DNA from: Alphaproteobacteria bacterium GWF2_58_20
GTDB taxonomy: Bacteria; Pseudomonadota; Alphaproteobacteria; UBA1247
NCBI GenBank assembly: GCA_001768735.1
Contig: MEMB01000002.1
Span: forward strand, 699,031-763,030
DNA: 64,000 nucleotides
Reading direction: 5' to 3'
The notes under the pieces were generated by a model. That model saw nothing but the letters and a program-made list of their open reading frames with translations, made no database searches and had not been told where the DNA came from. Below, piece after piece: positions 1 to 58,807 of the stretch. A program made the translations under genes and the position numbers. Within the stretch, counting starts at the first letter, position 1. The number at the start of each line of letters is the position of its first letter.

Positions 1-503
1 TCTGCGGAATGGCCGCGGAGAAATTTGCATCATCATCGACCACCGTCCCTCATCCCCTGAAACGCCTTCCATCCTTTTTTCCGGCCCGGACGCAGCCCTT
101 GAGCGCCGGCCAGATGAAACCGTCTTCCTGCCGGCCTTCCCGGAACATTTCCTTGAAACCGCAAAAACCTGCGACAGCATCCTTGTTGTCGAGGTCACGG
201 ACATATCCCCCGAAGAACTTTCCGGTACGAAAGATCTTCCCAAAAACCACATTTCCCGAATTTACGACGCCAAGGTGAGCCATGAGTGAGCTGGTACACC
301 CAAACAAACCGACGTGCATATGCTGCGTCCTCGCACGGACAAGGGCATTGGACAAACCAGAAAGAAAAAGACCAGAAAAAACATAGGAAACATCCCGCCC
401 AACATCCATCGCGAAACCAGCACAAGGAGAAACCCCAATAAACGCCTGCAAGCCATAAAAAACAAAAAAGGCAGCAGGCAAAGAACAGACAGGAACAAAA
501 GCG

Positions 504-3410: not shown

Positions 3411-4157
3411 TTACCGGTTGCTGAAATAGCGGTCGTTGCCTATGGCATGCGCAAGGTGCAGCCCCATCGCCGCCATCTCGCGACTGAACACTTCGAAATT
3501 TTCATCGAAACATTCGACCTGAATGAATACCCTGTTGCCTGCAAGGAGCTGTTTCATGCCGGCAATGGCTGTGGCCTCATGGCCTTCGATGTCAATCTTG
3601 AGGAACAAGTTTTCATCGCGCAGGGGAAGGAATTCGTCCAGCGCCACGCAAGGCAACTCCACCGCGTTTTCGCCCACGCCCACGCGGGATTGCCCCGTAA
3701 CACTCTCGTCATAATGCAGGAAGCTGATGGTGCCGGTTTTCTCCGACACGGCCTTGTCCACAATCTCTATCTTGCCCACCAGTCCATTGAGCAGGATGTT
3801 GGCTTCCAGCTGGTAACGGTTCCGGATATCGGGTTCAAAGGCCACTACCCGGCTGGCCAGTTTTTTGGCTGCAACCAGAATGCTGTAATAGCCAATATTG
3901 GCTCCCACATCGAGGAAGATTCCCCCGGGAGCCTTGGCCATTTCCCCCAAAAAATAATCCAGCTGTTCGCGCTCGAAATCATCATAAAAGGCAATCTGCC
4001 GATCGACAAAATTTCGGTAATGCAACAGGAACACCGATCCACGCGAAGGCTTCAGCGCAAAACCATTTGGCCAGGTCATGCGCGCAACCAGCTTGCCGAA
4101 ACTCGGAACCAGACGCTTCAATATGGGGAGGTTGTAACGCGCAGGGTTGAAGGACAT
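3411..4157 (-). CDS. FkbM-family SAM-dependent methyltransferase
   Basis: 248 aa. LDVGANIGYYS is the FkbM-type glycine-rich motif. It is divergent from manC. Confidence 0.7.
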   Translation of the reverse strand: MSFNPARYNLPILKRLVPSFGKLVARMTWPNGFALKPSRGSVFLLHYRNFVDRQIAFYDDFEREQLDYFLGEMAKAPGGIFLDVGANIGYYSILVAAKKLASRVVAFEPDIRNRYQLEANILLNGLVGKIEIVDKAVSEKTGTISFLHYDESVTGQSRVGVGENAVELPCVALDEFLPLRDENLFLKIDIEGHEATAIAGMKQLLAGNRVFIQVECFDENFEVFSREMAAMGLHLAHAIGNDRYFSNR

Positions 4158-4385: not shown

Positions 4386-5864
4386 ATGTCCAACAAAACG
4401 CGTATCCAGCCTGTCATTCTTTGCGGTGGTTCCGGCACCCGCCTCTGGCCCCTTTCGCGCACAGGATTTCCAAAACAATTTCTCAGCCTCACCGGAAACA
4501 GCACCCTGTTCCAGCAGGCTATCCAGCGTCTGTCCATGACAGGGGGCAAAAAACATCCCGTGTCCGCTCCCATGATCGTTATCAACGAAGAACACCGTTT
4601 CATTGCCATTGAACAACTGAGGGAAACAGGCATTGAACCTGGCCCTGTCCTGCTTGAACCGGTTGGACGCAACACAGCCCCTGCCCTGACGCTTGCCGCC
4701 CTGTCCGCACAGGAAACGGGGGATGACCCCATCCTTGTCGTAACCCCTTCCGACCAGATGGTCACCGATCTCCCCATCTTTACCACAGCCATACAACAAG
4801 CAATTGATGAAGCCATGCATGACAGCATGGTCATCCTTGGCATTTCCCCAAACCGCCCTGAAACCGGATATGGTTATATCAAGGCAGGCGCCCCCGCCAA
4901 TACCAAAGCAGTCTTGACCCCAACTTTTATTGTTGAATGTTTTGTTGAAAAACCTGATGAAGCAACCGCAAAACATTATCTTGAAGAAGGCGGTTACTTC
5001 TGGAATGCTGGAATATTCGTACTCAAGGCTTCCGTATGGCTCAAAGCCATTGAACATTTTTGCCCGGAAATCTCCAAGGCAACCCGCAAGGCATGGGCAC
5101 ACCGCACAACAGACACTCATTTCATCCGCCCAGGGAAAGCGGAATTTTCCAGCGTTCCGGCCAAATCCATCGATTATGCCGTCATGGAACACTGTCCCGG
5201 CAGTCCATTCCCCATCAGGATGGTTCCACTCGACGCCGGCTGGAGCGACCTTGGAGCTTGGGACGCCATATGGGACAACCTTCCGAAGGATGAATGCGAC
5301 AACGCCCATCTGGGCGACGTTGTGACCACCGACAGCCACAACACCCTGGTGCACGCCACCAGCCGCCTTGTCAGCCTGGTGGGCGTGGACAACCTTGTCA
5401 TTATCGAAACCCCGGATGCCATACTGGTTGCCAACAAATCACGAAGCCACGACGTAAAACACATTGTCAACCAACTGGATGCGCAAAAACGCCATGAACA
5501 CACACACCACCGAAAGGTATACCGCCCGTGGGGCTGGTACGACAACCTTGAAACCGGCCCCTTTTTCAAGGTCAAGCGCATCCAGGTCAAGCCCAAAGCC
5601 AGCATAAGCCTGCAAAAGCACAATCATCGCGCCGAACACTGGATTGTCATTGAAGGGACTGCGGAAATCACCTGTGGCGAAAAGCGCCTGACACTGTCCA
5701 TGAACCAGTCAACTTATATTCCATTGGGGGAAACCCACAGGCTTTCAAACCCGGGCGACACCCCGCTTGAAATCATCGAAGTGCAATCGGGCAGTTATCT
5801 GGGCGAAGACGACATTGTGCGCTTTGCAGACCAATATGGACGCATGGAAATCCAGAGCATTTAA
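4386..5864 (+). CDS. manC: mannose-1-phosphate guanylyltransferase / mannose-6-phosphate isomerase (bifunctional, with a C-terminal cupin)
   Basis: 492 aa. The N-terminus VILCGGSGTRLWPLSR is the nucleotidyltransferase G-loop. The C-terminal cupin carries EHWIVIEGTAEI. Confidence 0.85.
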   Translation: MSNKTRIQPVILCGGSGTRLWPLSRTGFPKQFLSLTGNSTLFQQAIQRLSMTGGKKHPVSAPMIVINEEHRFIAIEQLRETGIEPGPVLLEPVGRNTAPALTLAALSAQETGDDPILVVTPSDQMVTDLPIFTTAIQQAIDEAMHDSMVILGISPNRPETGYGYIKAGAPANTKAVLTPTFIVECFVEKPDEATAKHYLEEGGYFWNAGIFVLKASVWLKAIEHFCPEISKATRKAWAHRTTDTHFIRPGKAEFSSVPAKSIDYAVMEHCPGSPFPIRMVPLDAGWSDLGAWDAIWDNLPKDECDNAHLGDVVTTDSHNTLVHATSRLVSLVGVDNLVIIETPDAILVANKSRSHDVKHIVNQLDAQKRHEHTHHRKVYRPWGWYDNLETGPFFKVKRIQVKPKASISLQKHNHRAEHWIVIEGTAEITCGEKRLTLSMNQSTYIPLGETHRLSNPGDTPLEIIEVQSGSYLGEDDIVRFADQYGRMEIQSI

Positions 5865-5865
5865 C

Positions 5866-6036
5866 GTTTAGAGCCTTGAGCGTTTAGATTGAACAATTCC
5901 TGTTGATCTTGGGATGAGCCAGACCGCAAGGCGAAAACCGCAGGGCGATGCGGGCATCGTCCAAGGTTTGAAAACACGGCGGATGGCCATCAAAAGGCAA
6001 CAGGGGTATTCAAGATGAACGCTCAAGGCTCTAAAT
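5866..6036. repeat. MITE-like palindromic element, full-length copy of a dispersed family
   Basis: Terminal inverted repeats tttagagccttgagcgtttagattgaa (5867..5893) and ttcaagatgaacgctcaaggctctaaa (6009..6035). The internal segment ttgaacaattcctgttgatcttggga recurs at 55716..55764. Confidence 0.55.
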
Positions 6037-6093
6037 GCTCCAGCGTCACAAAGGCCGTTTTCATGATTTTACAGGATAAGGCAAAAAAGCCGA

Positions 6094-6169
6094 TGGCGTC
6101 CCCTAGGGGATTCGAACCCCTGTTGGCGCCGTGAGAGGGCGCTGTCCTAGGCCTCTAGACGAAGGGGAC
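6094..6169 (-). tRNA. tRNA-Glu (anticodon CUC)
   Basis: The reverse complement is GTCCCCTTCGTCTAGAGGCCTAGGACAGCGCCCTCTCACGGCGCCAACAGGGGTTCGAATCCCCTAGGGGACGCCA. It folds as a cloverleaf with a 7-bp acceptor stem, a TTCGAAT T-loop and anticodon loop CTCTCAC. Confidence 0.85.
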
Positions 6170-6244: not shown

Positions 6245-7432
6245 TCAGGGCCCGGGACGCGGAACATCGCTCCCGGAATGTCTCCGTTTTTTCTGCGCAA
6301 TTTCTGCCTCGCGCCGCCGCATGAAGACTGCAATGCCTGCGGCCCCCAAAACGCCCATCAGGAAAACCCATTTCTCCGCATCATGCCCGCAAGGTTCTTG
6401 TGGCATCGCAGGTGGCAGGACAGGCGCCCGCGTCCGGACACCGGGAAGCTTTGCCCCCGGAAACAGGACAGCAAGCTTGGCGTGGGTTGCGGAAGAAACG
6501 CCGGAATAGCGGGTGTTCTTTTTGGAAAAACCCGGCAATTGGCGAGAAACACCCCCCAAGCCATTCAAGCTCATGCTGGCCACAAGATCAGGACTCTCGT
6601 AGGTATCTCCGGGCCACGCAAGAACCCTTCCCTCTGCCTTTGCTTCCCGCTTCATGTCCTCAAGAATGCGCATGCAGGCATTTTCGTAAACCGTGCAAAG
6701 CGGCGAGTCAAAAAAGGCATCAAACACGGCCAGCCGGGCACTTTCCGTTGCCGTTTCAGGATTTGCGGCATACGCGCATTCCCAGGCTTCCGCCAAAGGT
6801 TTCTGGGCATCTCTGGAAAGACAGGAAGCCCAGGCCTGCCCGCCCATTTGCCAGGCAGCTTCTGTCCCGACCGTGCGCGCAATGGCTTCTGAAACCTTGT
6901 ATTCCAGAAAACATTCCGACAGGGAACGATTGGACATTTGCATCAATCCAAGCCCAAACTGCTGCACATGGGTCATTTCATGCAGCAGCGTTGGAACAAG
7001 CTCATCATCCTGATAAAGCTGGCTCAGGAAAACCGTTTCCATCCGCCGATGGGTTTCCCCGTGAAACTGCCGTGCCCGAAGCATGTCTTCAAAAAACATC
7101 AGGCGCCAATCCGTTCCAACATCCTGCCCAAAAAGGCGTTTCCCCTGAAAAGATTGCTGGGCCCGCCTGACAATTTCAGCCAGGCGCATCTGCTCCACCT
7201 TCGTGCCTTCCAGCATGAAACCGGCGGGGATATCATCCATTCTGGCCAAGGATGCGGAAAGGAAAGTTTCCCGGGAACGTTGCTCCGCCCGGTTAAAGGC
7301 CTCAACAAGTTTTTTGACCGGCTTTACAGTCTCTGACCGCAAAACCTCCGGTTCTGGTGCGGCAGACAGAGCAGCCGCAAGACCAAGGGCTGCAACCCCA
7401 CCCAAAAGCCAGGATTTCAGGCTTTGCCTCAT
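6245..7432 (-). CDS. secreted or membrane-tethered hypothetical protein with an HEMTH (HExxH) motif
   Basis: 395 aa. N-terminal signal peptide (LLGGVAALGLAAALSAAP). LLHEMTHVQQFG motif. C-terminal hydrophobic helix (VFLMGVLGAAGIAVF) followed by a basic tail. Confidence 0.5.
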   Translation of the reverse strand: MRQSLKSWLLGGVAALGLAAALSAAPEPEVLRSETVKPVKKLVEAFNRAEQRSRETFLSASLARMDDIPAGFMLEGTKVEQMRLAEIVRRAQQSFQGKRLFGQDVGTDWRLMFFEDMLRARQFHGETHRRMETVFLSQLYQDDELVPTLLHEMTHVQQFGLGLMQMSNRSLSECFLEYKVSEAIARTVGTEAAWQMGGQAWASCLSRDAQKPLAEAWECAYAANPETATESARLAVFDAFFDSPLCTVYENACMRILEDMKREAKAEGRVLAWPGDTYESPDLVASMSLNGLGGVSRQLPGFSKKNTRYSGVSSATHAKLAVLFPGAKLPGVRTRAPVLPPAMPQEPCGHDAEKWVFLMGVLGAAGIAVFMRRREAEIAQKKRRHSGSDVPRPGP

Positions 7433-8310
7433 GCCGCATCCCCAAACAGGAAAACCAGTATCTGCTCCGGTGCATCGGCCACAAAATCGGCGTCAACCGG
7501 CCCCTGCTTGCGCGCCTCGGCACAAATCCGGATAAAATAGGGATGCACCTTGTCGAGTACCTCAAGACGCGCCAGGATTTTCTTTCCCCAGGCCGCATAA
7601 ATTCCCATAACGCCGCATTTGCGCGCCATGGCCACATCCCGCACGGGATGATCGCCGACCATCACGGCCTGCTCCGGTCTCACCTTCATTTCCGCAAGAA
7701 TGGCCTGCAGGATTTCCGGGTGGGATTTTGGCCCGTGATCCTCGATATTCGCCGCAAGACGCAAGACAAAGCCGTGTTCATCCGGCAAAGACTCATAACG
7801 CGGCGGCTCGGCTGGATCATAGGTGCGTTCAGGCCCCCGATCCCCCGCCACGCAAACCAAGTCAAACAGGTCGCCGATGCCCAGATGCTCCATTTGGGCA
7901 AGAATGCGGCTGATGTTGGCATCCGAATAACAGGCGAGCTTCACGCCGCGGGCCTTGAGCGCTTGAAGCGTATCCACGAGCCCTTCATAAGGACGGATCA
8001 AGTCCTGCAAACAAGCCTCGTAAGCCCTGATCTCCGGCCCGTAGCGCTGCACCAGGTCATCTCCCGGATGCGCCCCCATGAGCCCCGCATGATGCGGGAT
8101 GGCCAGCGAATACTGAAACATGTTGGTATGCACATCAAAGACGGCCTTCATGCCTTCCATGACCACATCCCGCGAAAGGCCGCTTTTCCCGGCCAAATCA
8201 TCAATCAGGCGGGAAAAAGCCTGATCATGGGCACCGAAGCTTTCCCACAAGGTATTGTCGAAATCAAAAATGGCAAGCCTGATATCATGCATGGTCTTTT
8301 GATCTTTCAC
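7429..8310 (-). CDS. HAD-superfamily hydrolase, tandem paralog 1
   Basis: DIRLAIFDFDNTLW (DxDxT motif I) and MVGDHPVRDVAMA (motif IV). About 65% identical to paralog 3. Confidence 0.7.
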   Translation of the reverse strand: MKDQKTMHDIRLAIFDFDNTLWESFGAHDQAFSRLIDDLAGKSGLSRDVVMEGMKAVFDVHTNMFQYSLAIPHHAGLMGAHPGDDLVQRYGPEIRAYEACLQDLIRPYEGLVDTLQALKARGVKLACYSDANISRILAQMEHLGIGDLFDLVCVAGDRGPERTYDPAEPPRYESLPDEHGFVLRLAANIEDHGPKSHPEILQAILAEMKVRPEQAVMVGDHPVRDVAMARKCGVMGIYAAWGKKILARLEVLDKVHPYFIRICAEARKQGPVDADFVADAPEQILVFLFGDAA

Positions 8311-9170
8311 AGTTTCTCACCATCCCTAAACAGAAAACCCAAGACCTGCTCCGGTGCATCGGCCACGAAATCCGCCACCACCTGTGAACCCACACGTGCA
8401 TTTTCCCGCATTTGACGGAAATAGGGATGAATGTCGGCCATCACCTCAAGATGCTCCAGGCTGTCACGCCCCCAAGCCGCAAAAATCCCGGTCATCCCCA
8501 TCTTCATGGCCATGGCCACATCGCGCACAGGATGATCCCCCACCATGACCGCCTGCCCCGGCTCCACCCCAAACTCGGCACAAATGAAGGAAAAAACCTC
8601 CGGGTGCGATTTCGGACCAAAACCGTCACTGTTCAGCACCATGCGACAGGCGGGTTTTCCTTCGCCTCCCAGTTTCACATATTCCACCGGGCATGCGGGA
8701 TCATGAACATCTTCTCCCGCCGGACAAGCGCACAGGATGTCAAAAAAAGACGCAATTCCGATCATGTGCATCCTCTCCAGAACCCGCGTCATGGGGCTTT
8801 CCGAATAGCAGGCAAGCCGGATGCCGCGCTGAACCATATCCTCCAGCACCTCCAGCATCCCGTCATAGGGCTTGGCAAGACGGGCAATATTGCTGTCAAA
8901 TGCCGCTATGGCCGATGCAAATTTTTCCGTAAGGTTCTCGCCAGGATAGGCCTTCCGCAGCACCGGATTGAGCGGCACCGTTTTGGGATAATGGAAAATG
9001 TCACAGTTCTCTTCCAAAACCTGACGCATGCCGGAAAGAATTTCATCTGCCGCAATGCCGCTTTGCTCGGACAGGTCTGCCACAAGAAGCCGGACAGCCT
9101 GATCGTTGGTGCCGAAATTCTCCCAAAGGGTATTGTCAAAATCGAAAATGGCAAGACGGATGTCACGCAT
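8307..9170 (-). CDS. HAD-superfamily hydrolase, tandem paralog 2
   Basis: MRDIRLAIFDFDNTLWENFG and GDHPVRDVAMAMKMG. Overlaps paralog 1 by 4 nt. Confidence 0.7.
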   Translation of the reverse strand: MRDIRLAIFDFDNTLWENFGTNDQAVRLLVADLSEQSGIAADEILSGMRQVLEENCDIFHYPKTVPLNPVLRKAYPGENLTEKFASAIAAFDSNIARLAKPYDGMLEVLEDMVQRGIRLACYSESPMTRVLERMHMIGIASFFDILCACPAGEDVHDPACPVEYVKLGGEGKPACRMVLNSDGFGPKSHPEVFSFICAEFGVEPGQAVMVGDHPVRDVAMAMKMGMTGIFAAWGRDSLEHLEVMADIHPYFRQMRENARVGSQVVADFVADAPEQVLGFLFRDGEKL

Positions 9171-9271
9171 GGTCGCAATCCTTCGACAGAAAACAAGGAA
9201 TGGGAAACCCTATCAAGATTCCTTTTCCCTTGGCAACAAAAACCCATCCCATGCAATTTTCACGAAAACCA

Positions 9272-10126
9272 TCAGCTTGCATCCCCAAACAGGAAATCCA
9301 GAATACTTTCCGGATATTCGGCAACAAACTCCGCATCCACCTTGCTCAGGGTTTTCGCCTCCGCGCACATCCGCATAAAATAGGGATGCACCTTGTCGAG
9401 CACCTCAAGACGTTCCAGGATTTTCCTCCCCCAGGCCGCATAAATTCCCACGACGCCACACTTTCGCGCCATGGCCACATCCCGGATGGGATGGTCTCCC
9501 ACCATGACCGCCTGATCCGGACGCACCTTCATTTCCGCAAGAATGGCCTGCAGGATTTCCAAATGGGATTTCGGGCCATGTTCTGTATTGACAGCCATGC
9601 GCCTGGCAAAACTGCAAGTCCCTTCAAGAGATACATAACGCACAGGTTCATCCGGGCAGAAAGGGGCATCTTCCTCATCAGCCGCACAGACCAGATCAAA
9701 CAGGTGCCCAATCCCCAATTCTTCCATTTGGCGGAAAACCCTGGATGCAGACGCATCCGAATAACAGGCAAGGCGTACACCGCGCGCCCTGAGTCCCTCC
9801 AGCAGGAGGAAGATACCATCATATGGCTTCACAAAGCTTTGTAAAAGCTTTTCAAAAACCTCAACTTCCAGGGCATATCGCTGAACAAGGTCTTCCCCGG
9901 GATGGGCGGCCTTCAAAGCCGGATGGCAGGGGATGGCACAAGGATACTGGAACATGGTCGCGTGCTCGGCAAACACGCTCTGCATGCCGTTGATGATGTC
10001 CATTTGGGAAATGCCGCTGCTTGCAGAAAGATCACAAACGAGCCCCATAAAGGCACGATCATGCGCCCCGACATTCTCCCACAAGGTGTTGTCAAAATCA
10101 AAGACGGCAAGGCGGATATCACGCAT
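9272..10126 (-). CDS. HAD-superfamily hydrolase, tandem paralog 3
   Basis: The start was moved to the internal Met before RDIRLAVFDFDNTLW (ATG complement at 10124..10126), which gives 285 aa like the two siblings. Confidence 0.65.
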   Translation of the reverse strand: MRDIRLAVFDFDNTLWENVGAHDRAFMGLVCDLSASSGISQMDIINGMQSVFAEHATMFQYPCAIPCHPALKAAHPGEDLVQRYALEVEVFEKLLQSFVKPYDGIFLLLEGLRARGVRLACYSDASASRVFRQMEELGIGHLFDLVCAADEEDAPFCPDEPVRYVSLEGTCSFARRMAVNTEHGPKSHLEILQAILAEMKVRPDQAVMVGDHPIRDVAMARKCGVVGIYAAWGRKILERLEVLDKVHPYFMRMCAEAKTLSKVDAEFVAEYPESILDFLFGDAS

Positions 10127-10262
10127 GAGGGGGCTTTCCGGGCCAGGAGATGAAACGCAAGTCTGCAGTTTCCACATCGAAATCCTGTTTGGCAACCTAA
10201 AAACCAGCATAAAAAGGCTTGACCACACCTGCAGGACACATTATGAAAGTTCCCGGCTACTC

Positions 10263-15174: not shown

Positions 15175-16301
15175 GTTTCCTGCCTTCCACTTCCAATATA
15201 TGTCCTGTGGTGGTGCGCACCAAGCCCCACCATGACTTCAAACGCAATGGTTCCCGCCTGCCGGGCCACATCATCAACCAGGGCGTGATGCCCTAAAATC
15301 TCAACCCAGCATCCGGGCCGCACCAGCGAATCATCCACATCTGTCACATCCAGCATGATGTGTTCCATGCACACCCGGCCAACCACCGGAACCCGGACAT
15401 CTCCCACAAACGCGCCTCCGGCCTTTCCAAACGCACGCAGGATTCCATCAGCATACCCTGCATCCACCGTTGCAACCCGCATCCGTGACGGCGCACGGTA
15501 TTCCGCACCGTACCCTACCGGCATGCCCCTGTCCACCTCCCGCACCTGCAAAATGCGGGCCCGGAAGAACATGACAGGACGCATGGGATTGGGCGCTCCC
15601 TGAACCTGGTTGCTGCCATACATGGCCCCCCCCGGGCGTACCATGCGGAAATGATACCCATCACCAAGAAAAATACCTGCGGAATTACCCAGGCTGATGA
15701 GCGGCTTTTCACTGTCCGCCCCGACACCCAGTTTTGCAAGGGCCGCGACAAAACGCGCCCGCTGCTCAATGTTTTCAGGTGCCAACGCATCCCCGGCACA
15801 GGCCAGATGGCTCATCACAACCTCAAGATCAATGCCGCAAAGCCCTTGGGGATCCTGTGCCAGCTTTTCCACATCTTCTGCTGAAAGGCCCAGTCGATTC
15901 ATCCCTGTATCCACCTGAAGGATGGCGGAAAGGGAACATCCCAAAAGACGGGCATGCTGTCGCCAGCACGCCACCTCATCAAGGCTGTTGAGGACAGGCA
16001 TGGCCCCAATGTCCGAGAACAGTTTCTCCATTCCGATGACAAGGCCATTCAGGACGGCAATCCGCGCATCGGGCAGGATGACGCGCAAAGCCTGTGCCTC
16101 TTCAAGCCGGGCAACAAAAAACCAGCGGCAACCTTCCCGCCAAAGCACGGGCGCAACAGCCTCCATGCCCAGACCATAGGCATCCGACTTCACCACGGCC
16201 GCGCAGGCAGCCTGCCCCGCTTTTGCGCGCAGGAAACGGTAATTCGCAGCCAATGCTGCGAGGTCAACAATCAACTCTGCGCCGGAGCGTTCCCCTGACA
16301 T
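15171..16301 (-). CDS. alr: alanine racemase
   Basis: AVVKSDAYGLG pyridoxal phosphate-lysine motif. The start was trimmed to the Met of MSGERSG (377 aa). Confidence 0.85.
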   Translation of the reverse strand: MSGERSGAELIVDLAALAANYRFLRAKAGQAACAAVVKSDAYGLGMEAVAPVLWREGCRWFFVARLEEAQALRVILPDARIAVLNGLVIGMEKLFSDIGAMPVLNSLDEVACWRQHARLLGCSLSAILQVDTGMNRLGLSAEDVEKLAQDPQGLCGIDLEVVMSHLACAGDALAPENIEQRARFVAALAKLGVGADSEKPLISLGNSAGIFLGDGYHFRMVRPGGAMYGSNQVQGAPNPMRPVMFFRARILQVREVDRGMPVGYGAEYRAPSRMRVATVDAGYADGILRAFGKAGGAFVGDVRVPVVGRVCMEHIMLDVTDVDDSLVRPGCWVEILGHHALVDDVARQAGTIAFEVMVGLGAHHHRTYIGSGRQET

Positions 16302-23205: not shown

Positions 23206-25875
23206 ATGACAATCTCAGGCCTGATAACACGACCTCTCTCCCCTCCCTCCATGAAGCCGCCGAAGGAAGACGGCGATACAGCCGCTGCCAACCGGCTGCG
23301 CTTTGCCGTGTCCACGGGCGATATCGAGAACGTCAGGGCCGCCCTTCAGGAATGGTCGGATACAGAAGCCAAGGCAGCCCTTGAAATCGCCGCCCGCAAT
23401 GGGCAGGCGGCCATCCTCGGCGTCCTGCTCAACCATATCGATGTCATCGCCCGCCACAACCTGGTTGTGGCAAAGATGGTGGTCAAGGGAACCAACCTGA
23501 AACCCGCCCTTCCCTCCGAATACAAAACCGCGCTTGTCGCCGCCGCCAGCCACGGCCATGCGGAATGCGCCCGCATGCTGATGGAGGCCGGCGCCGACCC
23601 GACCGCCGCCATGGAGGCCGCTGTGAAAGCCGGGGACGAGGACATCGCCCTCATGGCCTGCAAGGCCGGTGGAAGCATCAAGACGGGGGAGACGTTCAAC
23701 AAGCATTGCATGCTGCGGGGCATGACCCGCCTGCTAGATCATGCGCGGGACACCTACGGCCTGAGCGTCATCGATGTTTACCACGAAAACAGCTACATAT
23801 CCGCCCCCCCATGGCCGGCCCCCCTGAGGCACCTGCCCGACAAATCCCTCATCTGGCTGCTGGAAAACGGCATGGCGTCCGAAAAATTCATCCGGGCCGA
23901 CCTTGTGGAAAAACCCGCCTTCTGGGAGCATGCCTTTGCCCAAAAGCGCCTGACGCCCGACATGGTCTTCAGGCACGGCATCGGCTACGGCACCGAAACC
24001 ACGGTTCGCTTCGCGCTGGCACATGGTGCCGACATCAACGCGCTGGGGCCGGGCATCGTCCTCAAAAACATCCAGAAACGCGAACAAGCCATCGTTTCCC
24101 TCCTGCTGGAAAAGGGAATTGACCTTACCGGACAGGCCGATGCCTGCCTCGTGGCCTGCATCGAGGAAGGCAGCAGCCATTTCCCGCTGGCGCTGCAGCT
24201 TCTGGAAAAACATGGCGCAGACGTCAATGCCGGCAATGGCACCCCTCTTCTGGCCAGCATGAAATGGACAGATGACAGCATGTTCCACAAGCTCCTGGAG
24301 CTTGGCGCGAACGTCCAGTTGCAGCCCGACGCCTATCTGGAAAAAGCGGGACAGGATGACAGCGGAAAGAAACTCCTGCTCCTGAACCTGCATGGTCTTT
24401 CGCTCAAGACGCGCGCGCCTGAAATCCTGAAAAACAACCTGACCAACGCCAACAGCCTGATTTTCATGCTGGCCCTGCGGGAAGCGCCGATGGAGGCGCT
24501 GAAACTCTGCCTTGAAAAGGATACGTTTCCCTTTGAGGTGATGCGCTATTTCGAAATGCAGGCCAGGGACGGCACCATGAACGCCAAGGATGCGCTCGTC
24601 ATCCTGCACGCGCACGGATTCAACTCCAAAAATCCTGAACAGCAAAAGCTGGCGGGCCTCATCGCCGCCTGCGGGGAGGACGTCTCTGGTTTCCCTGATG
24701 TCATGCTCTCGTCCGCGGACAAAAAAGCGCTTATCGCCAAGGGCGTGGAATCCCCCGGCTATTTTCCTTGGCCCGGCAACCATTGGCAGCGTTTGCGCCA
24801 TCTCTTTTCATCGCAGCGGCCCGCCGTGAAGATCCCGGAAAACACGGCTCCTGAAACCATGAATGACTGGCAAGCGGGCATTCTGCGTGCGCGCAACGCA
24901 ACAACAGACATGGAACGCGCCTGCAAAAAGGGCAGCATGAAAGCCTTTTTGCGCATGATGGCAGCCAATGCCGAAAAACTGGCTGACCTGTCGGAAACCT
25001 ATGTCCTATCAAGCCCGCAAACCTGCGCGGACCTGCACACCAAGGCCAAAAGCTGGCGCCAGCTTGCCGGGACCTCCGCAGCCCTTGACGGCGCCACCGA
25101 AAACGCCGCCGCCTTTGCCGAGCCGGAAATCCTTTACAAAACAGCCCTAGCCCTCAAGTCCGGGCAGGAACGGGCCAGCGCCATGTCCCTGCTGGTGGAT
25201 CACGCTACCCTTTACAGCCTTGTCACTGAAACCATGCAGGAAACGCTCAGGAAAGATTCAGAAAACCTGAAATCCTCCATTATCATCGCCACGGACGAGG
25301 AAAACCGGAAACTGGAAAGGCTGACTGCACGGCTGGATACCATCCCGGCCACCCATATAGCCCCCAAAAGCCTGGAAACCCTGAAGGCCATCGCCGCCCG
25401 CGACGGAACCAGCAAGGCGCTGGAAACGCTGGGCCTGATGCCGCAATCCTTCGACATCCATTTCATGGGCCGCAGGACGGGTCGTTTCCGTCCGTGGGTC
25501 TGGTTGCGCAAGAAATTCCACGCCGATGCCTGGCATAACAGCTTGAAGGATTACAAGAACCACCTCCAAACATGGCAGGCGGAAGACCCGGACGGCTCAT
25601 TTGGCCTCCTCAGGGAGATACTCGACATCACGGAAAAAACCCACCGCCTCGCTACCCCGCTCATCCAGCAGCAGGCGCAGGACGAAAAAGGCGCGGCCTT
25701 CTTTGCCGATGTGGTGAAAGCCAGCAGGGCTGTGGAACCCTTCATTTTCAGCCTTGCCAAGGCGCAAGGGCAGCCCTCCCACAAAAACCGTTGCCTGCCG
25801 GAAATCTTCGAGACGGAGGAAGGGCCAGAGAATATCACAAGTACCCCGCGCCCACCCACGCTGGAGCGGCAGTAG
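23206..25875 (+). CDS. large ankyrin-repeat protein (889 aa)
   Basis: The N-terminal third has ankyrin-like repeats (ALEIAARNGQAAILGVLLNH, LVAAASHGHAECARMLMEAGADP, HGADINALGP, HGADVNAGNGTPLLASM). The rest is alpha-helical with no recognised domain. Confidence 0.6.
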   Translation: MTISGLITRPLSPPSMKPPKEDGDTAAANRLRFAVSTGDIENVRAALQEWSDTEAKAALEIAARNGQAAILGVLLNHIDVIARHNLVVAKMVVKGTNLKPALPSEYKTALVAAASHGHAECARMLMEAGADPTAAMEAAVKAGDEDIALMACKAGGSIKTGETFNKHCMLRGMTRLLDHARDTYGLSVIDVYHENSYISAPPWPAPLRHLPDKSLIWLLENGMASEKFIRADLVEKPAFWEHAFAQKRLTPDMVFRHGIGYGTETTVRFALAHGADINALGPGIVLKNIQKREQAIVSLLLEKGIDLTGQADACLVACIEEGSSHFPLALQLLEKHGADVNAGNGTPLLASMKWTDDSMFHKLLELGANVQLQPDAYLEKAGQDDSGKKLLLLNLHGLSLKTRAPEILKNNLTNANSLIFMLALREAPMEALKLCLEKDTFPFEVMRYFEMQARDGTMNAKDALVILHAHGFNSKNPEQQKLAGLIAACGEDVSGFPDVMLSSADKKALIAKGVESPGYFPWPGNHWQRLRHLFSSQRPAVKIPENTAPETMNDWQAGILRARNATTDMERACKKGSMKAFLRMMAANAEKLADLSETYVLSSPQTCADLHTKAKSWRQLAGTSAALDGATENAAAFAEPEILYKTALALKSGQERASAMSLLVDHATLYSLVTETMQETLRKDSENLKSSIIIATDEENRKLERLTARLDTIPATHIAPKSLETLKAIAARDGTSKALETLGLMPQSFDIHFMGRRTGRFRPWVWLRKKFHADAWHNSLKDYKNHLQTWQAEDPDGSFGLLREILDITEKTHRLATPLIQQQAQDEKGAAFFADVVKASRAVEPFIFSLAKAQGQPSHKNRCLPEIFETEEGPENITSTPRPPTLERQ

Positions 25876-50813: not shown

Positions 50814-50862
50814 ATTTTAGAGCCTTTAACGTTTGGTTCAAGATGAACGTTGGAAGGCTCTC
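50814..50862. repeat. compact hairpin copy of the palindromic repeat family, lying between convergent genes (a likely bidirectional terminator)
   Basis: AGAGCCTTTAACGTT-tggttcaagatg-AACGTTGGAAGGCTCT. The arms match the family motif agagcctttaacgtttgg. Confidence 0.45.
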
Positions 50863-50870
50863 AGCAGCCA

Positions 50871-55667: not shown

Positions 55668-55715
55668 GACATTTCCCCCGCAACCAACCCTGATATTTCC
55701 AGCCGGATGCCAACC

Positions 55716-55812
55716 TTAACGTTTGGATTGAACAATTCCTGTTGATCTTGGGACGAGCCAGTCGCAAGGCAAACAGGGGGGCAAAATGCTCTAAAGGCTC
55801 TAAAGGCTTCAA
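55716..55812. repeat. truncated copy of the MITE-like family, ending in a 3x tandem 9-mer ctaaaggct
   Basis: ccttaacgtttggattgaacaattcctgttgatcttgggacgagccag is 45/49 identical to 5873..5921. It is followed by gctctaaaggctctaaaggcttcaaaggctcta. Confidence 0.5.
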
Positions 55813-55817
55813 AGGCT

Positions 55818-56687
55818 CTAATCCTTTTGCAGACCGGAAGCCTTCAGCCATACCTGTGCCTGCACTGCGGAAGCATTGATTTCCATATCTGTCATGGAGC
55901 CGGCAAGTTCTGCGGCCATTGATCGGGCCCGGCTGCTTTCGAGGGCATTCCCCCACAAGTCCTGCGCCACCAGGAACCACATTCGCGCGGCGACAAGATC
56001 GCGACCTGAAATGTTGCGCATGTCATCGCCCCTCGCCTTGTAGAACAGGCCCATCTGGTAGGCCGCATCTGCAAGCCCTCCCTCCGCCGCCAGAAGATAG
56101 GCCGCGCGGGCACGCAACATGTCCTGCCGCATGCCACAACCACTTTCATAAAGCTTGCCAAGGGCCAGTTGCGCCCTGGCATGTTTCTGTCGGGCGGCCT
56201 GTTCATAAAAGCGCGCAGCCGCAATGCAATCCGGAACTTGCGCCTTTTCCAGCCTTTGCCCCATTTCGTATTGGGCGTAGGAATTTCCGCGTTTTGCCGC
56301 TTTTTCATACCATTCCCCGGCCAATTCCCCATTACGGGAAACCCCCATGCCCTTTTCCAGCATGATGGCGAGGTTAAGTTGTGCCACCGCATTTCCCTGT
56401 CGGGCGGCCTTTTCAAACCACAGGAAAGCCTGAGGTAAATCCTGCCTTGCATCCAGACCTTCCGCCAGCATGAAGGCCAGGTTCATCTGGGCATGCACAT
56501 TTCCGCGCTGGGCAAGATTGGTGTAAAAAGCAAGGGTTTCCTCGGGCGTTTCAGGAATACGTGAAAACACATCCAAATGTTCAATGACAAGCCCTGTTTC
56601 AAGCGGTGTCATAAGCTGTGCATCTTCGGCCCATGCCCCTCCGGATGCCAGCAGAACAACCAGACTTAAAAGAATTTTTCCACCCAT
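55818..56687 (-). CDS. secreted Sel1-repeat (TPR-like) protein
   Basis: Signal peptide, then at least six Sel1 repeats (for example AQLNLAIMLEKGMGVSRNGELAGEWYEKAAKRGNSYAQYEMGQRL). Confidence 0.7.
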   Translation of the reverse strand: MGGKILLSLVVLLASGGAWAEDAQLMTPLETGLVIEHLDVFSRIPETPEETLAFYTNLAQRGNVHAQMNLAFMLAEGLDARQDLPQAFLWFEKAARQGNAVAQLNLAIMLEKGMGVSRNGELAGEWYEKAAKRGNSYAQYEMGQRLEKAQVPDCIAAARFYEQAARQKHARAQLALGKLYESGCGMRQDMLRARAAYLLAAEGGLADAAYQMGLFYKARGDDMRNISGRDLVAARMWFLVAQDLWGNALESSRARSMAAELAGSMTDMEINASAVQAQVWLKASGLQKD

Positions 56688-56812: not shown

Positions 56813-57343
56813 TCAGCTCCCCAGATGCCGAACAAGCGCCAGGGCTTCGGCCGGCATTTCCTGCTCGATGCGCTGATAACGGCTGCCATCCCTCTGGCGG
56901 GTCAACATGCCGCGCCCGAACATTTCGCGTCGCAGCAGGGCATAATCCCCAAAGTGGTGATGGCTGTCGAGCAGTTCGCTGATGGTCTTTTCATCAAACA
57001 CCCTGCGCGCCGGAATCCGCGACCACAAAACCCACAAGACAAGCGTGCGCTCGCTGGCCTTGCCGGGCCAGCGCACAAGATTGCCCCCGGCATCGAAATG
57101 CCGGGCGACTTTCTGGATTTTCTTCATGTCCACAAGGGGCGCCTCGGTCATGACGCGCACGGGCATGATGTCCGCATCGCCGGCATGGAAATGCTGGTAA
57201 TTGCGAAAGCCCGCCGCCCGCGCCAGCATGTTGAGGAGTTCCAGATGGCTGGGGACAGCTTCCTTTTTTACCATCTGCGCCGCGAGCGATTTGGCAAGGT
57301 CGGAAATATCCTTAACGCAATAGGGCTGATCGTTTTTAGGCAT
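56813..57343 (-). CDS. hypothetical protein (possibly DUF2087-like)
   Basis: 176-aa ORF with coding-like composition. LVRWPGKASERTLVLWVLW...ELLDSHHHFGDYALLRREM is loosely DUF2087-like. Confidence 0.4.
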   Translation of the reverse strand: MPKNDQPYCVKDISDLAKSLAAQMVKKEAVPSHLELLNMLARAAGFRNYQHFHAGDADIMPVRVMTEAPLVDMKKIQKVARHFDAGGNLVRWPGKASERTLVLWVLWSRIPARRVFDEKTISELLDSHHHFGDYALLRREMFGRGMLTRQRDGSRYQRIEQEMPAEALALVRHLGS

Positions 57344-57629
57344 GACATATCCTTTCAGGTTCCGCGCCCGTCATCATTGCTGATTGCCTGTGGTTGCCGT
57401 CTTCAAACATGGGCCGGAAAAGGATTGTTTTCCAAGTGTCATGCGTCTGGCAGGTTTAGCTCCCCTTGCGGGGCGGCAACGCCTCGGATCTGCCGACCGT
57501 TGCCGAAGCATTTACGCCGCAATGACGCGCAAGGCAAGCGTTTTCAGCGAAAAAAATCGTTGCGGCTTTTGCCCTTTCCCGGCAAAACCGGAGAAGAAAA
57601 GCGGCAGGATACCGCAACTGCAAGCAAGC

Positions 57630-57746
57630 TCCGGAAGCCCTTCTTTGATGTTCGTTTCCAAAAACGCCGCGTCTTCCGCCGATGCGTTCCTGCGGGCGAT
57701 AACCGGCGCCATGTCCGGCGCTTTGAGCCATGCGTTTTCTGCAGGG
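57630..57746 (+). repeat. direct repeat copy A (about 117 bp), the partner of 58684..58802
   Basis: About 90% identical to copy B, with a perfect 68-bp core gatgcgttcctgcgggcgataaccggcgccatgtccggcgctttgagccatgcgttttctgcaggg. Confidence 0.7.
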
Positions 57747-57842
57747 AAGCCATGCAGAAATGACGGTTGCAATGAGGGGGGAAGAGCGGATACTTTAACA
57801 AGATCGAACAACTGGAAACGTCATGACAAGGGGTGCAAGGCA

Positions 57843-58601
57843 ATGACAACGCAAGAAACCATCAGGAAAAACCTGTTTGAGGCCACAAGACAGGGTGACC
57901 TTCCTCAAGTAAAGAAACTCATCGCCCAGCTGGACGAAGGCACCCAGCTTTCCGATGTGAAGGACATGAATGACTTCACGCCGCTGCATCTTGCTGCCGC
58001 GATGGGGCACAAGGATCTCGCGGAATTGCTGGCGGAAACGTGCCCGGACGCCATGATGGTGAGGGACATAAATGGCCTAACGCCGCTGCATTATGCTGCC
58101 GGGGAGAGGAATACGGATGTCGTGGAATTGCTGGCGAAAGAATGCCCGGACGCCATGATGGTGAGGGACATAAATGGCAACACACCGCTGCATGAGGCTG
58201 CCGCGAAGGGGCACAATGATATCGCGGAATTTCTGGCGGAAAAATGCCCGGACGCCATGATGGTGCAGAACAACAAGGGCAACACACCGCTGCATTGGGC
58301 TGTCTACTTGGGGTGCTTTGATATCGTGGAATTTCTGGCCGAAAAGGGCCCGGGCGCCATGATGATGAAGGACAAGTATGGCCTAACGCCGCAGGATGTG
58401 GCTGCCGAGAATGAGGACGAGGATACCGCGGCATTTCTGGAGAAAAAGATACGGGATGCCCTAAAGGTGAAGAACGGGGATGCACCCCTGACCATGGAAG
58501 AATTCAATCGTCTTTCCGCAGCCGCAGAAGCTGGGGAGATCGAAACTGTAAGGAAAATCCTAAAGGCAAAGGGTGTTTTCGCCCAGAAACCCAAGATGTA
58601 G
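57843..58601 (+). CDS. ankyrin-repeat protein
   Basis: The start was set at MTTQETIRKN. There are five or more repeats (TPLHLAAAMGHKDLAELL, TPLHYAAGERNTDVVELL, TPLHEAAAKGHNDIAEFL, TPLHWAVYLGCFDIVEFL). Confidence 0.7.
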   Translation: MTTQETIRKNLFEATRQGDLPQVKKLIAQLDEGTQLSDVKDMNDFTPLHLAAAMGHKDLAELLAETCPDAMMVRDINGLTPLHYAAGERNTDVVELLAKECPDAMMVRDINGNTPLHEAAAKGHNDIAEFLAEKCPDAMMVQNNKGNTPLHWAVYLGCFDIVEFLAEKGPGAMMMKDKYGLTPQDVAAENEDEDTAAFLEKKIRDALKVKNGDAPLTMEEFNRLSAAAEAGEIETVRKILKAKGVFAQKPKM

Positions 58602-58683: not shown

Positions 58684-58802
58684 TCCGGAAGCCCGGCTTT
58701 GATTTTCGTTCCCAAAAGAACGCAGCGTCTTCCGCGGATGCGTTCCTGCGGGCGATAACCGGCGCCATGTCCGGCGCTTTGAGCCATGCGTTTTCTGCAG
58801 GG
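58684..58802 (+). repeat. direct repeat copy B, immediately upstream of the paralog C start codon
   Basis: See copy A. It ends 5 nt before the ATG at 58808. Confidence 0.7.
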
Positions 58803-58807
58803 CCGCC

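What the first reader, a model, noticed from the sequence alone, without database searches (positions are those of the whole stretch)
5866..6036. Dispersed MITE-like palindromic repeat family, full-length copy
A roughly 170-bp element with 27-bp terminal inverted repeats (tttagagccttgagcgtttagattgaa / ttcaagatgaacgctcaaggctctaaa) starts 2 nt after the manC stop. Its core motif agagcctttaacgtttgg(a)ttgaacaattcctgttgatcttggga recurs at three further intergenic sites in this window. There is no transposase, so it is likely a non-autonomous MITE or a REP-like structural element. The whole element can fold into a long hairpin and may act as a terminator or mRNA stabiliser.
Basis: seen in the sequence. 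Interest (0 to 1): 0.5.

Follow-up and report, generated by a model that had tools for sequence, protein, structure and literature searches.

The report
Small hairpin transposon (MITE) family
This is a 165-bp, non-coding, hairpin-forming mobile repeat (a MITE) scattered through the genome of an uncultured groundwater alphaproteobacterium, nearly always just after gene stop codons; it is a new family of a well-known kind of element.

Summary
Window 5869-6033 is a 165-bp element with 27-nt terminal inverted repeats. End to end it folds into one long hairpin (-99 kcal/mol, z = -9.7). Three derivatives lie at 50818-50863, 55714-55820 and 63548-63654.

An exact 20-mer from the core found ten more full-length copies at different sites in metagenome contigs, in two subfamilies. 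A profile then found two copies of a 97-nt internally deleted form. Every full-length copy runs TAGAGC...GCTCTA and sits in a Y|TA...TA|R context. That fits insertion at TA within YTAR with TA duplication, but no empty site was available to prove it.

The hairpin is kept by compensatory changes: 9 of 65 pairs covary and 97.9% of cells pair. Twelve of 16 sites have an element end within 11 nt of, or overlapping, the stop codon of a long ORF (about 8% expected). In five sites the terminal TAG/TAA is itself the stop codon.

The element has no T-tract, and separate terminators follow several copies, so it is not an intrinsic terminator. It has no REP/REPIN features, no Rfam match and no coding capacity. 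No parent transposase was found in the sequence I could reach.

Verdict: a real, previously undescribed MITE family, and an ordinary kind of element.

The parts
5869..6033 (+). Full-length copy A of the element (165 bp, TAGAGC...GCTCTA, including the flanking TA dinucleotides)
   Evidence: nhmmer 189 bits and CM 188 bits over model positions 1-165. Aligned with 10 other full-length copies. Long hairpin, z = -9.7.
5867..5893 (+).
   Evidence: Inverted repeat I1: 27 nt, 89% complementary to 6009-6035.
6009..6035 (+). Right terminal inverted repeat
   Evidence: Inverted repeat I1.
5854..5868 (+). Outer arm-like motif AGAGCATTTAACGTT. It is a tandem second copy of the 16-nt outer arm module, in the other arm version, and it supplies the last codons and the TAA stop of manC.
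   Evidence: Direct repeat D2 (5854-5869 / 5870-5885) and inverted repeat I2 (5855-5877 / 6018-6040). The outer stem pairs in the fold. The motif matches the 'CATTTAA' arm version seen in L083, L084, L088, L089 and L092 (L093 has the close variant CGTTTAA). Read as a remnant of an older family member into or beside which copy A inserted (inference).
6034..6042 (+). Partner of the outer remnant. AAATGCTCC, together with the T at 6032, gives TAAATGCTC, the reverse complement of GAGCATTTA.
   Evidence: Inverted repeat I2; fold.
50818..50863 (+). Copy C: a 45-nt mini-hairpin made of the left and right arms joined, between the convergent CheR and FkbM-type methyltransferase genes
   Evidence: CM 19.9 bits, E = 0.006. 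Arm motif found by regex. Fold -24.4 kcal/mol, z = -3.4. Flanking genes identified. Stops lie 11 nt and 7-8 nt away.
55714..55820 (+). Copy B: a short-form derivative. The left terminus is damaged, the 42-nt core is 95% identical to copy A, and there is an internal deletion. The right end is four tandem 9-mers AA[T/G]GCTCTA (55785-55820), and its last CTA is the TAG stop of the Sel1-repeat gene on the - strand.
   Evidence: nhmmer 49.9 bits, E = 2.5e-14. Direct repeat D13. Sequence. ORF 55818-56687 (-) with Sel1 domains.
63548..63654 (+). Copy D: a decayed remnant. It keeps the left arm GAGCCTTTAACGTTTGGATGGAACCATTCC and the right-arm piece TTCAAGATG, and has lost its outer right arm.
   Evidence: nhmmer 18.3 bits, E = 1.2e-4. 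Arm motif found by regex. It does not fold as a hairpin, z = -1.0.

Best explanation
[quoted passage not shown] They are non-coding, palindromic DNA elements that spread through the genome of the uncultured groundwater alphaproteobacterium 'GWF2_58_20' and a related lineage, using a transposase supplied in trans.

Shown:
- The full form is 164-165 bp and has sharp boundaries, TAGAGC...GCTCTA.
- It occurs at no fewer than 11 different sites, with unrelated flanks.
- Shorter internally deleted forms exist (97 nt and 45 nt), and the 97-nt form is itself present at two sites in nearly identical copies.
- Copies occur nested in or abutting older copies.
- The element is absent from the loci of the nearest relatives that could be retrieved.

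Inferred:
- A DDE transposase dimer binds the terminal inverted repeats and inserts the element at a TA dinucleotide in a YTAR context, duplicating the TA. That is the behaviour of IS630/Tc1-mariner elements. An IS5-family (IS427/IS1031-type, 'GAG' ends) partner is the other candidate.
- The copies that survive are those between a stop codon and the gene's own terminator, where a 165-bp insert does no harm. Insertion into the TA of a TAA/TAG stop codon rebuilds a stop (TAG) from the element's own first bases.

Inferred, and weaker:
- Because the copies lie upstream of the terminators, they are co-transcribed as 3'-UTR sequence and form an imperfect RNA duplex of about 65 base pairs.
- Such a duplex could be cut by RNase III, block 3' exonucleases, or interfere with terminating ribosomes when it starts within 11 nt of the stop codon.
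- Selection or arm-to-arm correction keeps the hairpin intact.
For: Repeat family:
- An exact 20-mer scan of metagenome contigs gave 12 loci, 11 of which carry the element. These are 10 distinct sites, because L086 and L087 are the same locus.
- The alignment is 164-165 nt with identical ends and unrelated flanks.
- Copies are 92-98% identical within a subfamily and 80-88% between the two subfamilies.
- nhmmer found nothing below E = 0.1 in 1.22 Mb of unrelated control loci.

Derivatives and spread:
- Two near-identical 97-nt copies lie at L087 9320-9416 and 10600-10696. Both fold, with z = -4.9 and -7.1.
- A degenerate inverted copy abuts the L090 copy.
- Copy A is bracketed by an outer remnant of the other arm version.

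No coding capacity:
- Only short ORFs are present. The one frame that is open through the element (54 aa) has no homologue among 5.8 billion proteins.

Target site:
- Every intact copy has TA at both ends (the right end of mini-copy C reads TCA). The base before the element is Y in 13 of 14 copies and the base after it is R in 12 of 13.
- In L084, L086/L087, L087-s2 and L090, removing the element plus one TA leaves an in-frame TAA or TAG exactly where the host ORF now stops.

Position:
- Twelve of 16 sites have an element end within 11 nt of, or overlapping, the stop codon of an open frame of at least 200 aa. Only 8% of intergenic TA sites in the window are that close to a stop; binomial P is about 1e-10.
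- Ordinary terminators follow the element in L083, L086, L091 and L092.

Hairpin conservation:
- There are 65 pairs, and 97.9% of cells are paired, against 32-44% when the partners are slid.
- Nine pairs show compensatory changes. No shuffle out of 500 reached the observed covariation score.
- All 8 internal substitutions fixed between the subfamilies in paired columns form 4 compensated pairs. One more gives U.G, and 7 lie in the 36 unpaired columns.

Assembly behaviour typical of a repeat:
- A Logan contig ends 34 nt after the manC stop, inside the element. The UBA MAG has NN scaffold gaps inside copies A and B.

Literature:
- These features match the published definition of prokaryotic MITEs: under 500 bp, terminal inverted repeats, flanking duplications that fade with age, intergenic location, and stable stem-loop transcripts (PMC10969869; PMC11602168).
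Against: - No empty site was found, so the flanking TA cannot be told apart from the outermost bases of the inverted repeat. The protein clusters for manC and LysRS have no members between 82% and 100% identity, so no close strain was available for comparison.
- No autonomous element or transposase with matching ends was found in the window, in 20 kb of extra flank, or in about 68 kb of other loci. PLSDB plasmids and viral contigs also gave nothing. The complete genome could not be searched.
- The element is not AT-rich in absolute terms: GC is 0.52 against 0.53-0.59 for the window.
- The palindrome runs through the whole element, not just its ends, and its interior evolves by compensatory change. 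A plain transposase-binding model does not require that.
- Within-genome identity of about 94% means there is no sign of very recent activity.
Confidence: 0.8

Rival explanations
1. It is a REPIN-like element: a hairpin made of two inverted REP-type units, copied as single-stranded DNA by a domesticated IS200-like (RAYT, Y1/HUH) transposase, with no target duplication.
For: - Long imperfect palindromes sit in extragenic space at gene 3' ends, and the two arms evolve in concert.
- The ends read (Y)TAG...CTA(R), a faint echo of the GTAG/CTAC heads of REPs.
- No DDE partner was found.
- There are 5 invariant G.U pairs and no invariant A.C pair on one strand, which hints at selection on a single strand.
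Against: - The single arms do not form REP-type hairpins. Arm z-scores run from +1.4 to -0.9.
- There is no GTAG or CTAC anywhere in the element.
- The flank preference is symmetric (Y before the element, R after), as expected for a dimer acting on a palindromic double-stranded target. Y1 transposases use a one-sided guide tetranucleotide.
- REP units are 20-40 nt, whereas here the conserved arm is about 60-75 nt.
- No RAYT gene was seen in the sequence I held.
Confidence: 0.07
2. It is primarily a host-selected structured RNA module in 3' UTRs. Its hairpin controls mRNA decay or translation termination, and its transposon-like spread is only the means by which it is delivered.
For: - The hairpin is preserved by compensatory changes along its whole length, including parts well inside the terminal repeats.
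- The + (model-sense) strand folds 13 kcal/mol better than the other strand, owing to 5 invariant G.U pairs.
- Placement is tight: 0-11 nt after stop codons and upstream of terminators.
- Where only one neighbouring gene ends at the element, 7 copies are in sense and 2 in antisense orientation.
- Precedents exist. Correia elements are cut by RNase III, ERIC elements alter the decay of transcripts that carry them, and bcr1 shows compensatory changes at the RNA level (PMC10969869; PMC3184786).
Against: - The orientation bias is not significant (7 against 2, two-sided P about 0.18). The L085 copy lies antisense between accC and the next gene.
- The host genes are unrelated to one another: manC, accC, malQ, a PEBP-family gene, a GNAT gene, a Sel1-repeat gene, cheR.
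- Derivatives decay freely. Copy D no longer folds.
- Compensatory change can also come from arm-to-arm correction in a DNA palindrome, or from the need to keep both arms recognisable to one transposase.
- No expression data are available.
Confidence: 0.1
3. It is an intrinsic (rho-independent) transcription terminator family.
For: A very stable hairpin lies directly after genes.
Against: - No T-run follows the stem in copy A or in the other copies. The terminator scan found nothing at the element.
- Separate canonical terminators (GC stem plus T-run) lie just downstream of the element in L083, L086/L087, L091 and L092.
- A stem of about 65 pairs in a 165-nt element is far larger than intrinsic terminators. 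The CM's lower-scoring hits in the window show what the real terminators of this genome look like.
Confidence: 0.03

Closest known systems
Correia elements (CREE/NEMIS) of Neisseria
   Same: - About 100-155 bp, non-coding, with terminal inverted repeats of about 26 nt.
- Flanked by TA.
- Many dispersed copies close to genes, with full and internally deleted length classes.
- Transcribed into long hairpins that RNase III cuts (PMC10969869; the TA duplication and the length classes are from my own knowledge of the Correia literature).
   Different: - No sequence relationship is expected or was seen. The host is an alphaproteobacterium, not a betaproteobacterium.
- No IHF site or outward promoter was found here.
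- This family is concentrated at stop codons rather than in promoter regions.
ERIC/IRU elements of Enterobacteriaceae and Vibrio
   Same: An imperfect palindrome about 127 bp long that runs through the whole element. It is intergenic, often sits in 3' UTRs, is co-transcribed, and affects mRNA decay (PMC10969869).
   Different: The sequence, host and length differ. ERIC has no agreed transposase or target duplication. RNA effects have not been tested here.
bcr1 of the Bacillus cereus group
   Same: About 155 bp, dispersed, transcribed, with compensatory base changes that keep the RNA structure (PMC3184786).
   Different: bcr1 has 5-bp direct repeats, whereas this family is flanked by TA. The hosts are unrelated (Firmicutes).
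IS630/Tc1-mariner-derived bacterial MITEs (for example RUP of Streptococcus pneumoniae, Nezha of cyanobacteria)
   Same: The putative TA target and TA duplication inside a short palindromic target (IS630 itself uses CTAG), and non-autonomous copies mobilised in trans. This is from my own knowledge of ISfinder and the IS630 literature and was not tested here.
   Different: No IS630-family transposase or parent IS with matching ends was found. The 'GAG' ends would equally suit the IS5 family (IS1031/IS427 groups).
REP/BIME/REPIN elements
   Same: Extragenic palindromes at gene 3' ends. In E. coli, REPs within 15 nt of a stop codon affect translation termination (Liang, Rudd and Deutscher 2015, from my own knowledge), which is a possible functional parallel.
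   Different: The defining features are absent: no self-folding REP unit of 20-40 nt and no GTAG head.

Membership tests
MITE (prokaryotic miniature inverted-repeat transposable element) | Small size (under about 500-800 bp) and no transposase gene | tested here: met
   The element is 164-165 bp and holds only short ORFs. The one frame that stays open (54 aa) has no homologue.
MITE (prokaryotic miniature inverted-repeat transposable element) | Terminal inverted repeats of at least 10-15 bp | tested here: met
   27-nt arms, 89% complementary. The ends TAGAGC/GCTCTA are conserved in all 11 full-length copies, apart from one substitution in L090 (TAAAGC).
MITE (prokaryotic miniature inverted-repeat transposable element) | Multiple dispersed copies with unrelated flanks | tested here: met
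   There are 11 distinct full-length sites, 2 copies of the 97-nt form, and at least 4 decayed or derived copies. Unrelated genomes gave no hits.
MITE (prokaryotic miniature inverted-repeat transposable element) | Target-site duplication flanking the element | tested here: inconclusive
   TA lies at both ends of every intact copy, in a YTAR context. In four sites, removing the element plus one TA restores the host stop codon. Without an empty site, the TA could instead be part of the inverted repeat.
MITE (prokaryotic miniature inverted-repeat transposable element) | An autonomous partner IS with matching ends in the same genome | not testable with these tools
   None is present in about 150 kb of sequence held from this organism and its sister lineage. 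The complete MAG could not be scanned. The species is not in the genome collection.
IS630/Tc1-mariner-derived MITE | TA target duplicated on insertion, and an IS630-family DDE transposase | tested here: inconclusive
   The TA and YTAR context is compatible. No transposase was found. An IS5-family (IS427/IS1031) partner is equally possible.
REP / REPIN (RAYT-mobilised) | Each unit is a self-folding palindrome of 20-40 nt with a conserved GTAG head. A REPIN is two such units inverted. | tested here: not met
   The arms alone do not fold better than shuffled sequence (z from +1.4 to -0.9), and GTAG/CTAC is absent.
REP / REPIN (RAYT-mobilised) | A RAYT gene flanked by the repeats | not testable with these tools
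No such gene was seen next to any held copy.
Intrinsic terminator | A GC-rich stem-loop followed directly by a T-run | tested here: not met
   No T-run follows the element. The scan found no terminator at the element. Separate terminators lie downstream of several copies.
Any Rfam RNA family | A covariance-model match | tested here: not met
   No match at gathering thresholds in the window. With permissive settings on 5800-6100, the only hit was a chance one at E = 9.7.
Correia / ERIC / bcr1 / CIR (named MITE-like families) | Sequence similarity to the family consensus | not tested
   No reference sequences were at hand. Searching paper full text for the arm and core strings found nothing relevant. 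No GANTC (CcrM) site of the kind that defines CIR is present. The comparison is by behaviour only.

The most novel reading that the evidence does not exclude
The hairpin is not just tolerated but selected at the RNA level. On this reading, the family acts as a portable 3'-UTR module placed 0-11 nt after stop codons, which tunes translation termination or mRNA decay of the upstream gene. It may also be copied through a single-stranded hairpin intermediate by an enzyme other than a classical DDE transposase. Three observations would then make sense: the end-to-end compensatory evolution, the strand-specific G.U pairs, and the tight placement next to stop codons.
Probability: 0.12. Interest if true: 0.5.

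Novelty: new member of a known kind. Interest (0 to 1): 0.27.

Why it matters
Practical points:
- The family breaks short-read assemblies of this organism. One contig ends inside a copy and a public MAG has NN gaps inside two copies.
- It supplies stop codons and alters the C-termini of several genes.
- It marks a narrow lineage of uncultured groundwater Rhodospirillaceae-like bacteria.

Biological points:
- It adds an alphaproteobacterial example to the small set of bacterial MITEs whose whole length is a conserved hairpin.
- Its placement, right after stop codons and upstream of terminators, is unusually tight. That makes it a convenient natural test of how a long 3'-UTR duplex affects mRNA fate.

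It does not change any general picture. The kind of element and its likely effects are well known.

Tried and rejected
1. Genome-collection scan with the 24-nt core gave 0 hits, so the species is not among the GTDB representatives.
2. manC as a probe for orthologous loci was a poor choice. The best relatives are betaproteobacterial at 69% identity, so manC is a laterally moving O-antigen-type gene. This used the last genome scan and gave no empty site. The 80 loci served as a 1.2-Mb negative control instead.
3. LysRS relatives at 73-82% identity (L095-L099) do not carry the element, and their intergenic regions are too diverged for an empty-site comparison.
4. The open 54-aa frame through the element, used as a protein query, found nothing.
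5. The 68-bp and 9-bp length differences between two assemblies at copies A and B looked like polymorphism. They are NN scaffold gaps.
6. Ten kb of extra flank on each side of the window held no further copy and no transposase.
7. PLSDB plasmids gave only chance hits (E of 2 or more), viral contigs gave none, Rfam gave none, and literature string searches gave nothing relevant.
8. The CM's weaker hits in the window (3360, 1804, 18257, 41659, 58624, 25901) are ordinary terminators, not family members.
9. TSD models of 3 bp and 4 bp (IS1031-type TNA, IS5-type YTAR) do not fit. The 3- and 4-mers on the two sides are not direct repeats (flanks).
10. The tRNA link was rejected. Copy A lies next to tRNA-Glu and the L093 copy abuts a tRNA-Phe-like fragment, but no other copy is near a tRNA.
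11. An IHF site, a CcrM site and a sigma-70 promoter inside the element were considered. None was found.

Full report
**Observation.** The manC-type ORF (4386-5864; NTP_transferase, MannoseP_isomer and Cupin domains) ends with TAA at 5862-5864. A tRNA-Glu(CTC) gene lies on the other strand at 6094-6169. The stretch 5850-6045 folds into one long hairpin: -99 kcal/mol on the + strand, z = -9.71, with 0 of 200 shuffles as good; -86.3 kcal/mol and z = -7.87 on the - strand. The 26-nt core occurs twice in the window, where none is expected.

Self-BLAST, an nhmmer profile, a covariance model and a regular expression for the arm motif all agree on three more sites and no others.
- C, 50818-50863: the two arms joined into a 45-nt hairpin.
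- B, 55714-55820: an internally deleted form with a damaged left end and four tandem 9-mers at the right end.
- D, 63548-63654: a decayed remnant that no longer folds.

**Source organism.** The manC and LysRS proteins of the window are identical to proteins of the MAGs 'Alphaproteobacteria bacterium GWF2_58_20' and 'Rhodospirillaceae bacterium' (OFW83799.1, OFW83839.1, HAU28911.1, HAU28957.1). GWF2_58_20 is a subsurface-aquifer genome that has been placed near the Rhodospirillaceae (PMC5714133). The species is not in the genome collection I could scan.

**The family outside the window.** An exact 20-mer from the core found 12 stretches in JGI metagenome contigs. Eleven carry the whole element, at ten distinct sites, since L086 and L087 are the same locus. 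The twelfth, L094, is an unrelated chance match. All copies are 164-165 nt and run from TAGAGC to GCTCTA, and their flanks are unrelated.

The copies form two subfamilies, 80-88% identical to each other and 92-98% within each. One comprises window copy A and contigs Ga0154589/Ga0209417. The other comprises Ga0265297/Ga0172379.

A profile built from these copies found:
- two nearly identical copies of a 97-nt internally deleted form in L087 (9320-9416 and 10600-10696);
- a degenerate inverted copy abutting the L090 element;
- nothing below E = 0.1 in 1.22 Mb of unrelated genomes.

Loci around LysRS genes 73-82% identical to the window's LysRS do not carry the element. The family is therefore real, dispersed and lineage-restricted.

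It also behaves as a repeat in assemblies. A Logan contig ends 34 nt after the manC stop, and the UBA MAG has NN gaps inside copies A and B.

**Ends and target.** Every intact copy begins with TA and ends with TA (the right end of mini-copy C reads TCA). The base before the element is a pyrimidine in 13 of 14 copies, and the base after it is a purine in 12 of 13. This symmetric YTAR context with TA at both borders is what insertion at TA with TA duplication would produce. IS630/Tc1-mariner elements behave this way, and the 'GAG' termini would also suit the IS1031/IS427 groups of the IS5 family. Both statements come from my own knowledge of ISfinder and were not tested here.

Direct repeats of 3 bp or 4 bp do not fit the flanks. 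In L084, L086/L087, L087-s2 and L090, the host ORF stops at the element's own first TAG/TAA. Removing the element together with one TA would leave an in-frame TAA or TAG at the same place, which fits the TA model.

No empty site could be obtained, because the databases hold no close relative between 82% and 100% protein identity. The duplication therefore remains inferred.

**Nested and rearranged copies.**
- Copy A is preceded by a second 16-nt arm module, AGAGCATTTAACGTT (5854-5868), in the other arm version. It is followed by its inverted partner AAATGCTC. The pair extends the hairpin and supplies manC's last codons and stop.
- The L090 copy is flanked by a 14-16-nt direct repeat that belongs to an adjacent older copy.
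- Copy B ends in four tandem units, each made of the last 7 nt of the element plus TA. The last CTA is the TAG stop of the Sel1-repeat gene on the other strand.

Clustering of this kind, with copies inserted into one another, is described for other bacterial MITEs (PMC10969869).

**Position relative to genes.** In 12 of 16 sites, an end of the element lies within 11 nt of the stop codon of an open frame of at least 200 aa, or overlaps it. The genes include manC, a Sel1-repeat gene, cheR, an FkbM-type methyltransferase gene, accC, malQ, an Lcl-domain gene, a PEBP-family gene, a TPR-methyltransferase gene and a GNAT gene.

As a crude control, I removed the elements from the window and made a greedy gene call. 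Only 8% of intergenic TA sites then lay that close to a stop, giving a binomial P of about 1e-10. Doubling the expectation to allow for the element's two ends leaves the excess clear.

In L083, L086/L087, L091 and L092, a canonical terminator (GC stem plus T-run) follows the element. The element therefore sits between the stop codon and the terminator. It has no T-run of its own, and the terminator scan found nothing at it. It is not an intrinsic terminator, but it should be co-transcribed as part of the 3' UTR (inference).

**Structure conservation.** The consensus fold has 65 pairs. Of all cells, 97.9% are paired, against 32-44% when the partners are slid by 1-3 columns. Nine pairs show changes on both sides, and no shuffle out of 500 reached the observed covariation score.

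The outer arm exists in two versions that switch on both sides together: CCTTGAG/CTCAAGG and CATTTAA/TTAAATG. Both versions occur in the same genome.

Between the subfamilies, the 8 fixed internal substitutions in paired columns form 4 compensated pairs. One more gives a U.G pair, none breaks a pair, and 7 fall in the 36 unpaired columns. Five G.U pairs are invariant on the model-sense strand, and there is no invariant A.C pair, which explains the 13 kcal/mol advantage of that strand.

The hairpin is therefore maintained along its whole length. Three mechanisms could do this:
- selection on an RNA or single-stranded DNA hairpin;
- correction between the arms of a DNA palindrome;
- replacement of the outer arms through nested insertion followed by deletion between the tandem 16-nt modules.

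The data do not decide among them. Orientation relative to the adjacent gene leans to sense (7 against 2 where only one gene ends at the element) but is not significant. The L085 copy is antisense between accC and the next gene.

**What it is not.**
- It has no Rfam match.
- It has no REP/REPIN features: the arms alone do not fold and there is no GTAG head.
- It has no CcrM site of the kind that defines the Caulobacter CIR repeats.
- It has no protein-coding capacity.
- It has no relatives in plasmids or viral contigs.

**Mechanism.** The best-supported reading is a MITE family mobilised in trans by a DDE transposase that recognises the terminal repeats and inserts at TA in YTAR. The surviving copies are those in the harmless zone between stop codon and terminator. 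The size classes (165, 97 and 45 nt) arise by internal deletion.

- Shown: the family, its boundaries, its dispersal, its derivatives, its placement, and the conservation of its hairpin.
- Inferred: the TA duplication, the type of transposase, co-transcription, and any effect on mRNA.

By analogy, a long 3'-UTR duplex could be cut by RNase III, as Correia elements are. It could alter mRNA decay, as ERIC elements do (PMC10969869). bcr1 shows compensatory changes at the RNA level (PMC3184786). The duplex could also disturb terminating ribosomes when it starts within about 15 nt of the stop codon, as shown for E. coli REPs (my own knowledge).

**Verdict.** This is a real and previously undescribed family, but of a well-known kind. 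It works like Correia, ERIC and bcr1 elements and like IS630-type MITEs. It cannot be filed under any named family, because those are defined by sequence and host. Interest is modest. The tight coupling to stop codons and the end-to-end compensatory evolution are tidy but have precedents.

Noticed in passing
window 57448-57499 (-): A COG3860 RNA motif (Rfam RF02940, 58.8 bits against a gathering score of 42.5) lies just upstream of the DUF2087 gene at 56813-57343 (-). This is the known association for that motif.
   Followed up: no
window 57660-57754 and 58716-58810: A 95-nt direct repeat, 95% identical, with each copy ending in ATG. The second copy ends at the start codon of ORF 58808-60091. 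The first lies upstream of or within the ankyrin-repeat gene (57384/57843-58601). It may be a duplicated leader or regulatory region.
   Followed up: no
window 57957-58506: Five tandem 102-bp repeats (62-82% identical to the first) lie inside the ankyrin-repeat ORF. The window also encodes a second large ankyrin protein (23206-25875) and Sel1-repeat proteins. That is an unusual load of eukaryote-like repeat proteins for a free-living groundwater bacterium.
   Followed up: no
window 7429-10228 (-): Three tandem paralogous HAD-family hydrolase genes, with DNA 66-82% identical over 300 nt, lie downstream of the DUF6782 gene.
   Followed up: no
window 55785-55820: The right end of copy B is four tandem 9-mers AA[T/G]GCTCTA, each the last 7 nt of the element plus TA. 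The last CTA is the stop codon of the Sel1 gene on the - strand. The origin is unknown: slippage, or repeated end-joining or insertion events.
   Followed up: partly
L101 about 15440-15510 and L103 about 3525-3535 (GCA_003485165.1, contig DNAY01000004.1); L002 end: The public UBA MAG has NN scaffold gaps inside copies A and B. In A it loses 68 bp of the element, and in B it duplicates 9 bp. A Logan contig stops 34 nt after the manC stop. These are assembly artefacts caused by the repeat, not polymorphism.
   Followed up: yes
L093 about 340-416 (- strand): The element directly abuts a tRNA-Phe-like fragment (GCTCAGCCGGTAGGGCAGAGGGCCGAAAATCCTC...CCCGGGATCA) that lacks its 5' acceptor arm. ARAGORN does not call it. 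It may be a tRNA remnant left by an integrative element.
   Followed up: partly
window 4386-5864: The closest relatives of manC in the genome collection are betaproteobacterial (Chromobacterium, 69%), not alphaproteobacterial. Neighbouring genes are FkbM-type methyltransferases. This looks like a laterally acquired polysaccharide gene cluster.
   Followed up: no
L102/L103 13030-15647 (1.2-3.9 kb beyond the right end of the window): A Dcm-type cytosine methylase, a Vsr endonuclease and an AspBHI/Mrr-like restriction gene are followed by a block of small unannotated genes and a 670-aa protein with a weak CBM_5_12 hit, possibly a prophage or tailocin region.
   Followed up: no
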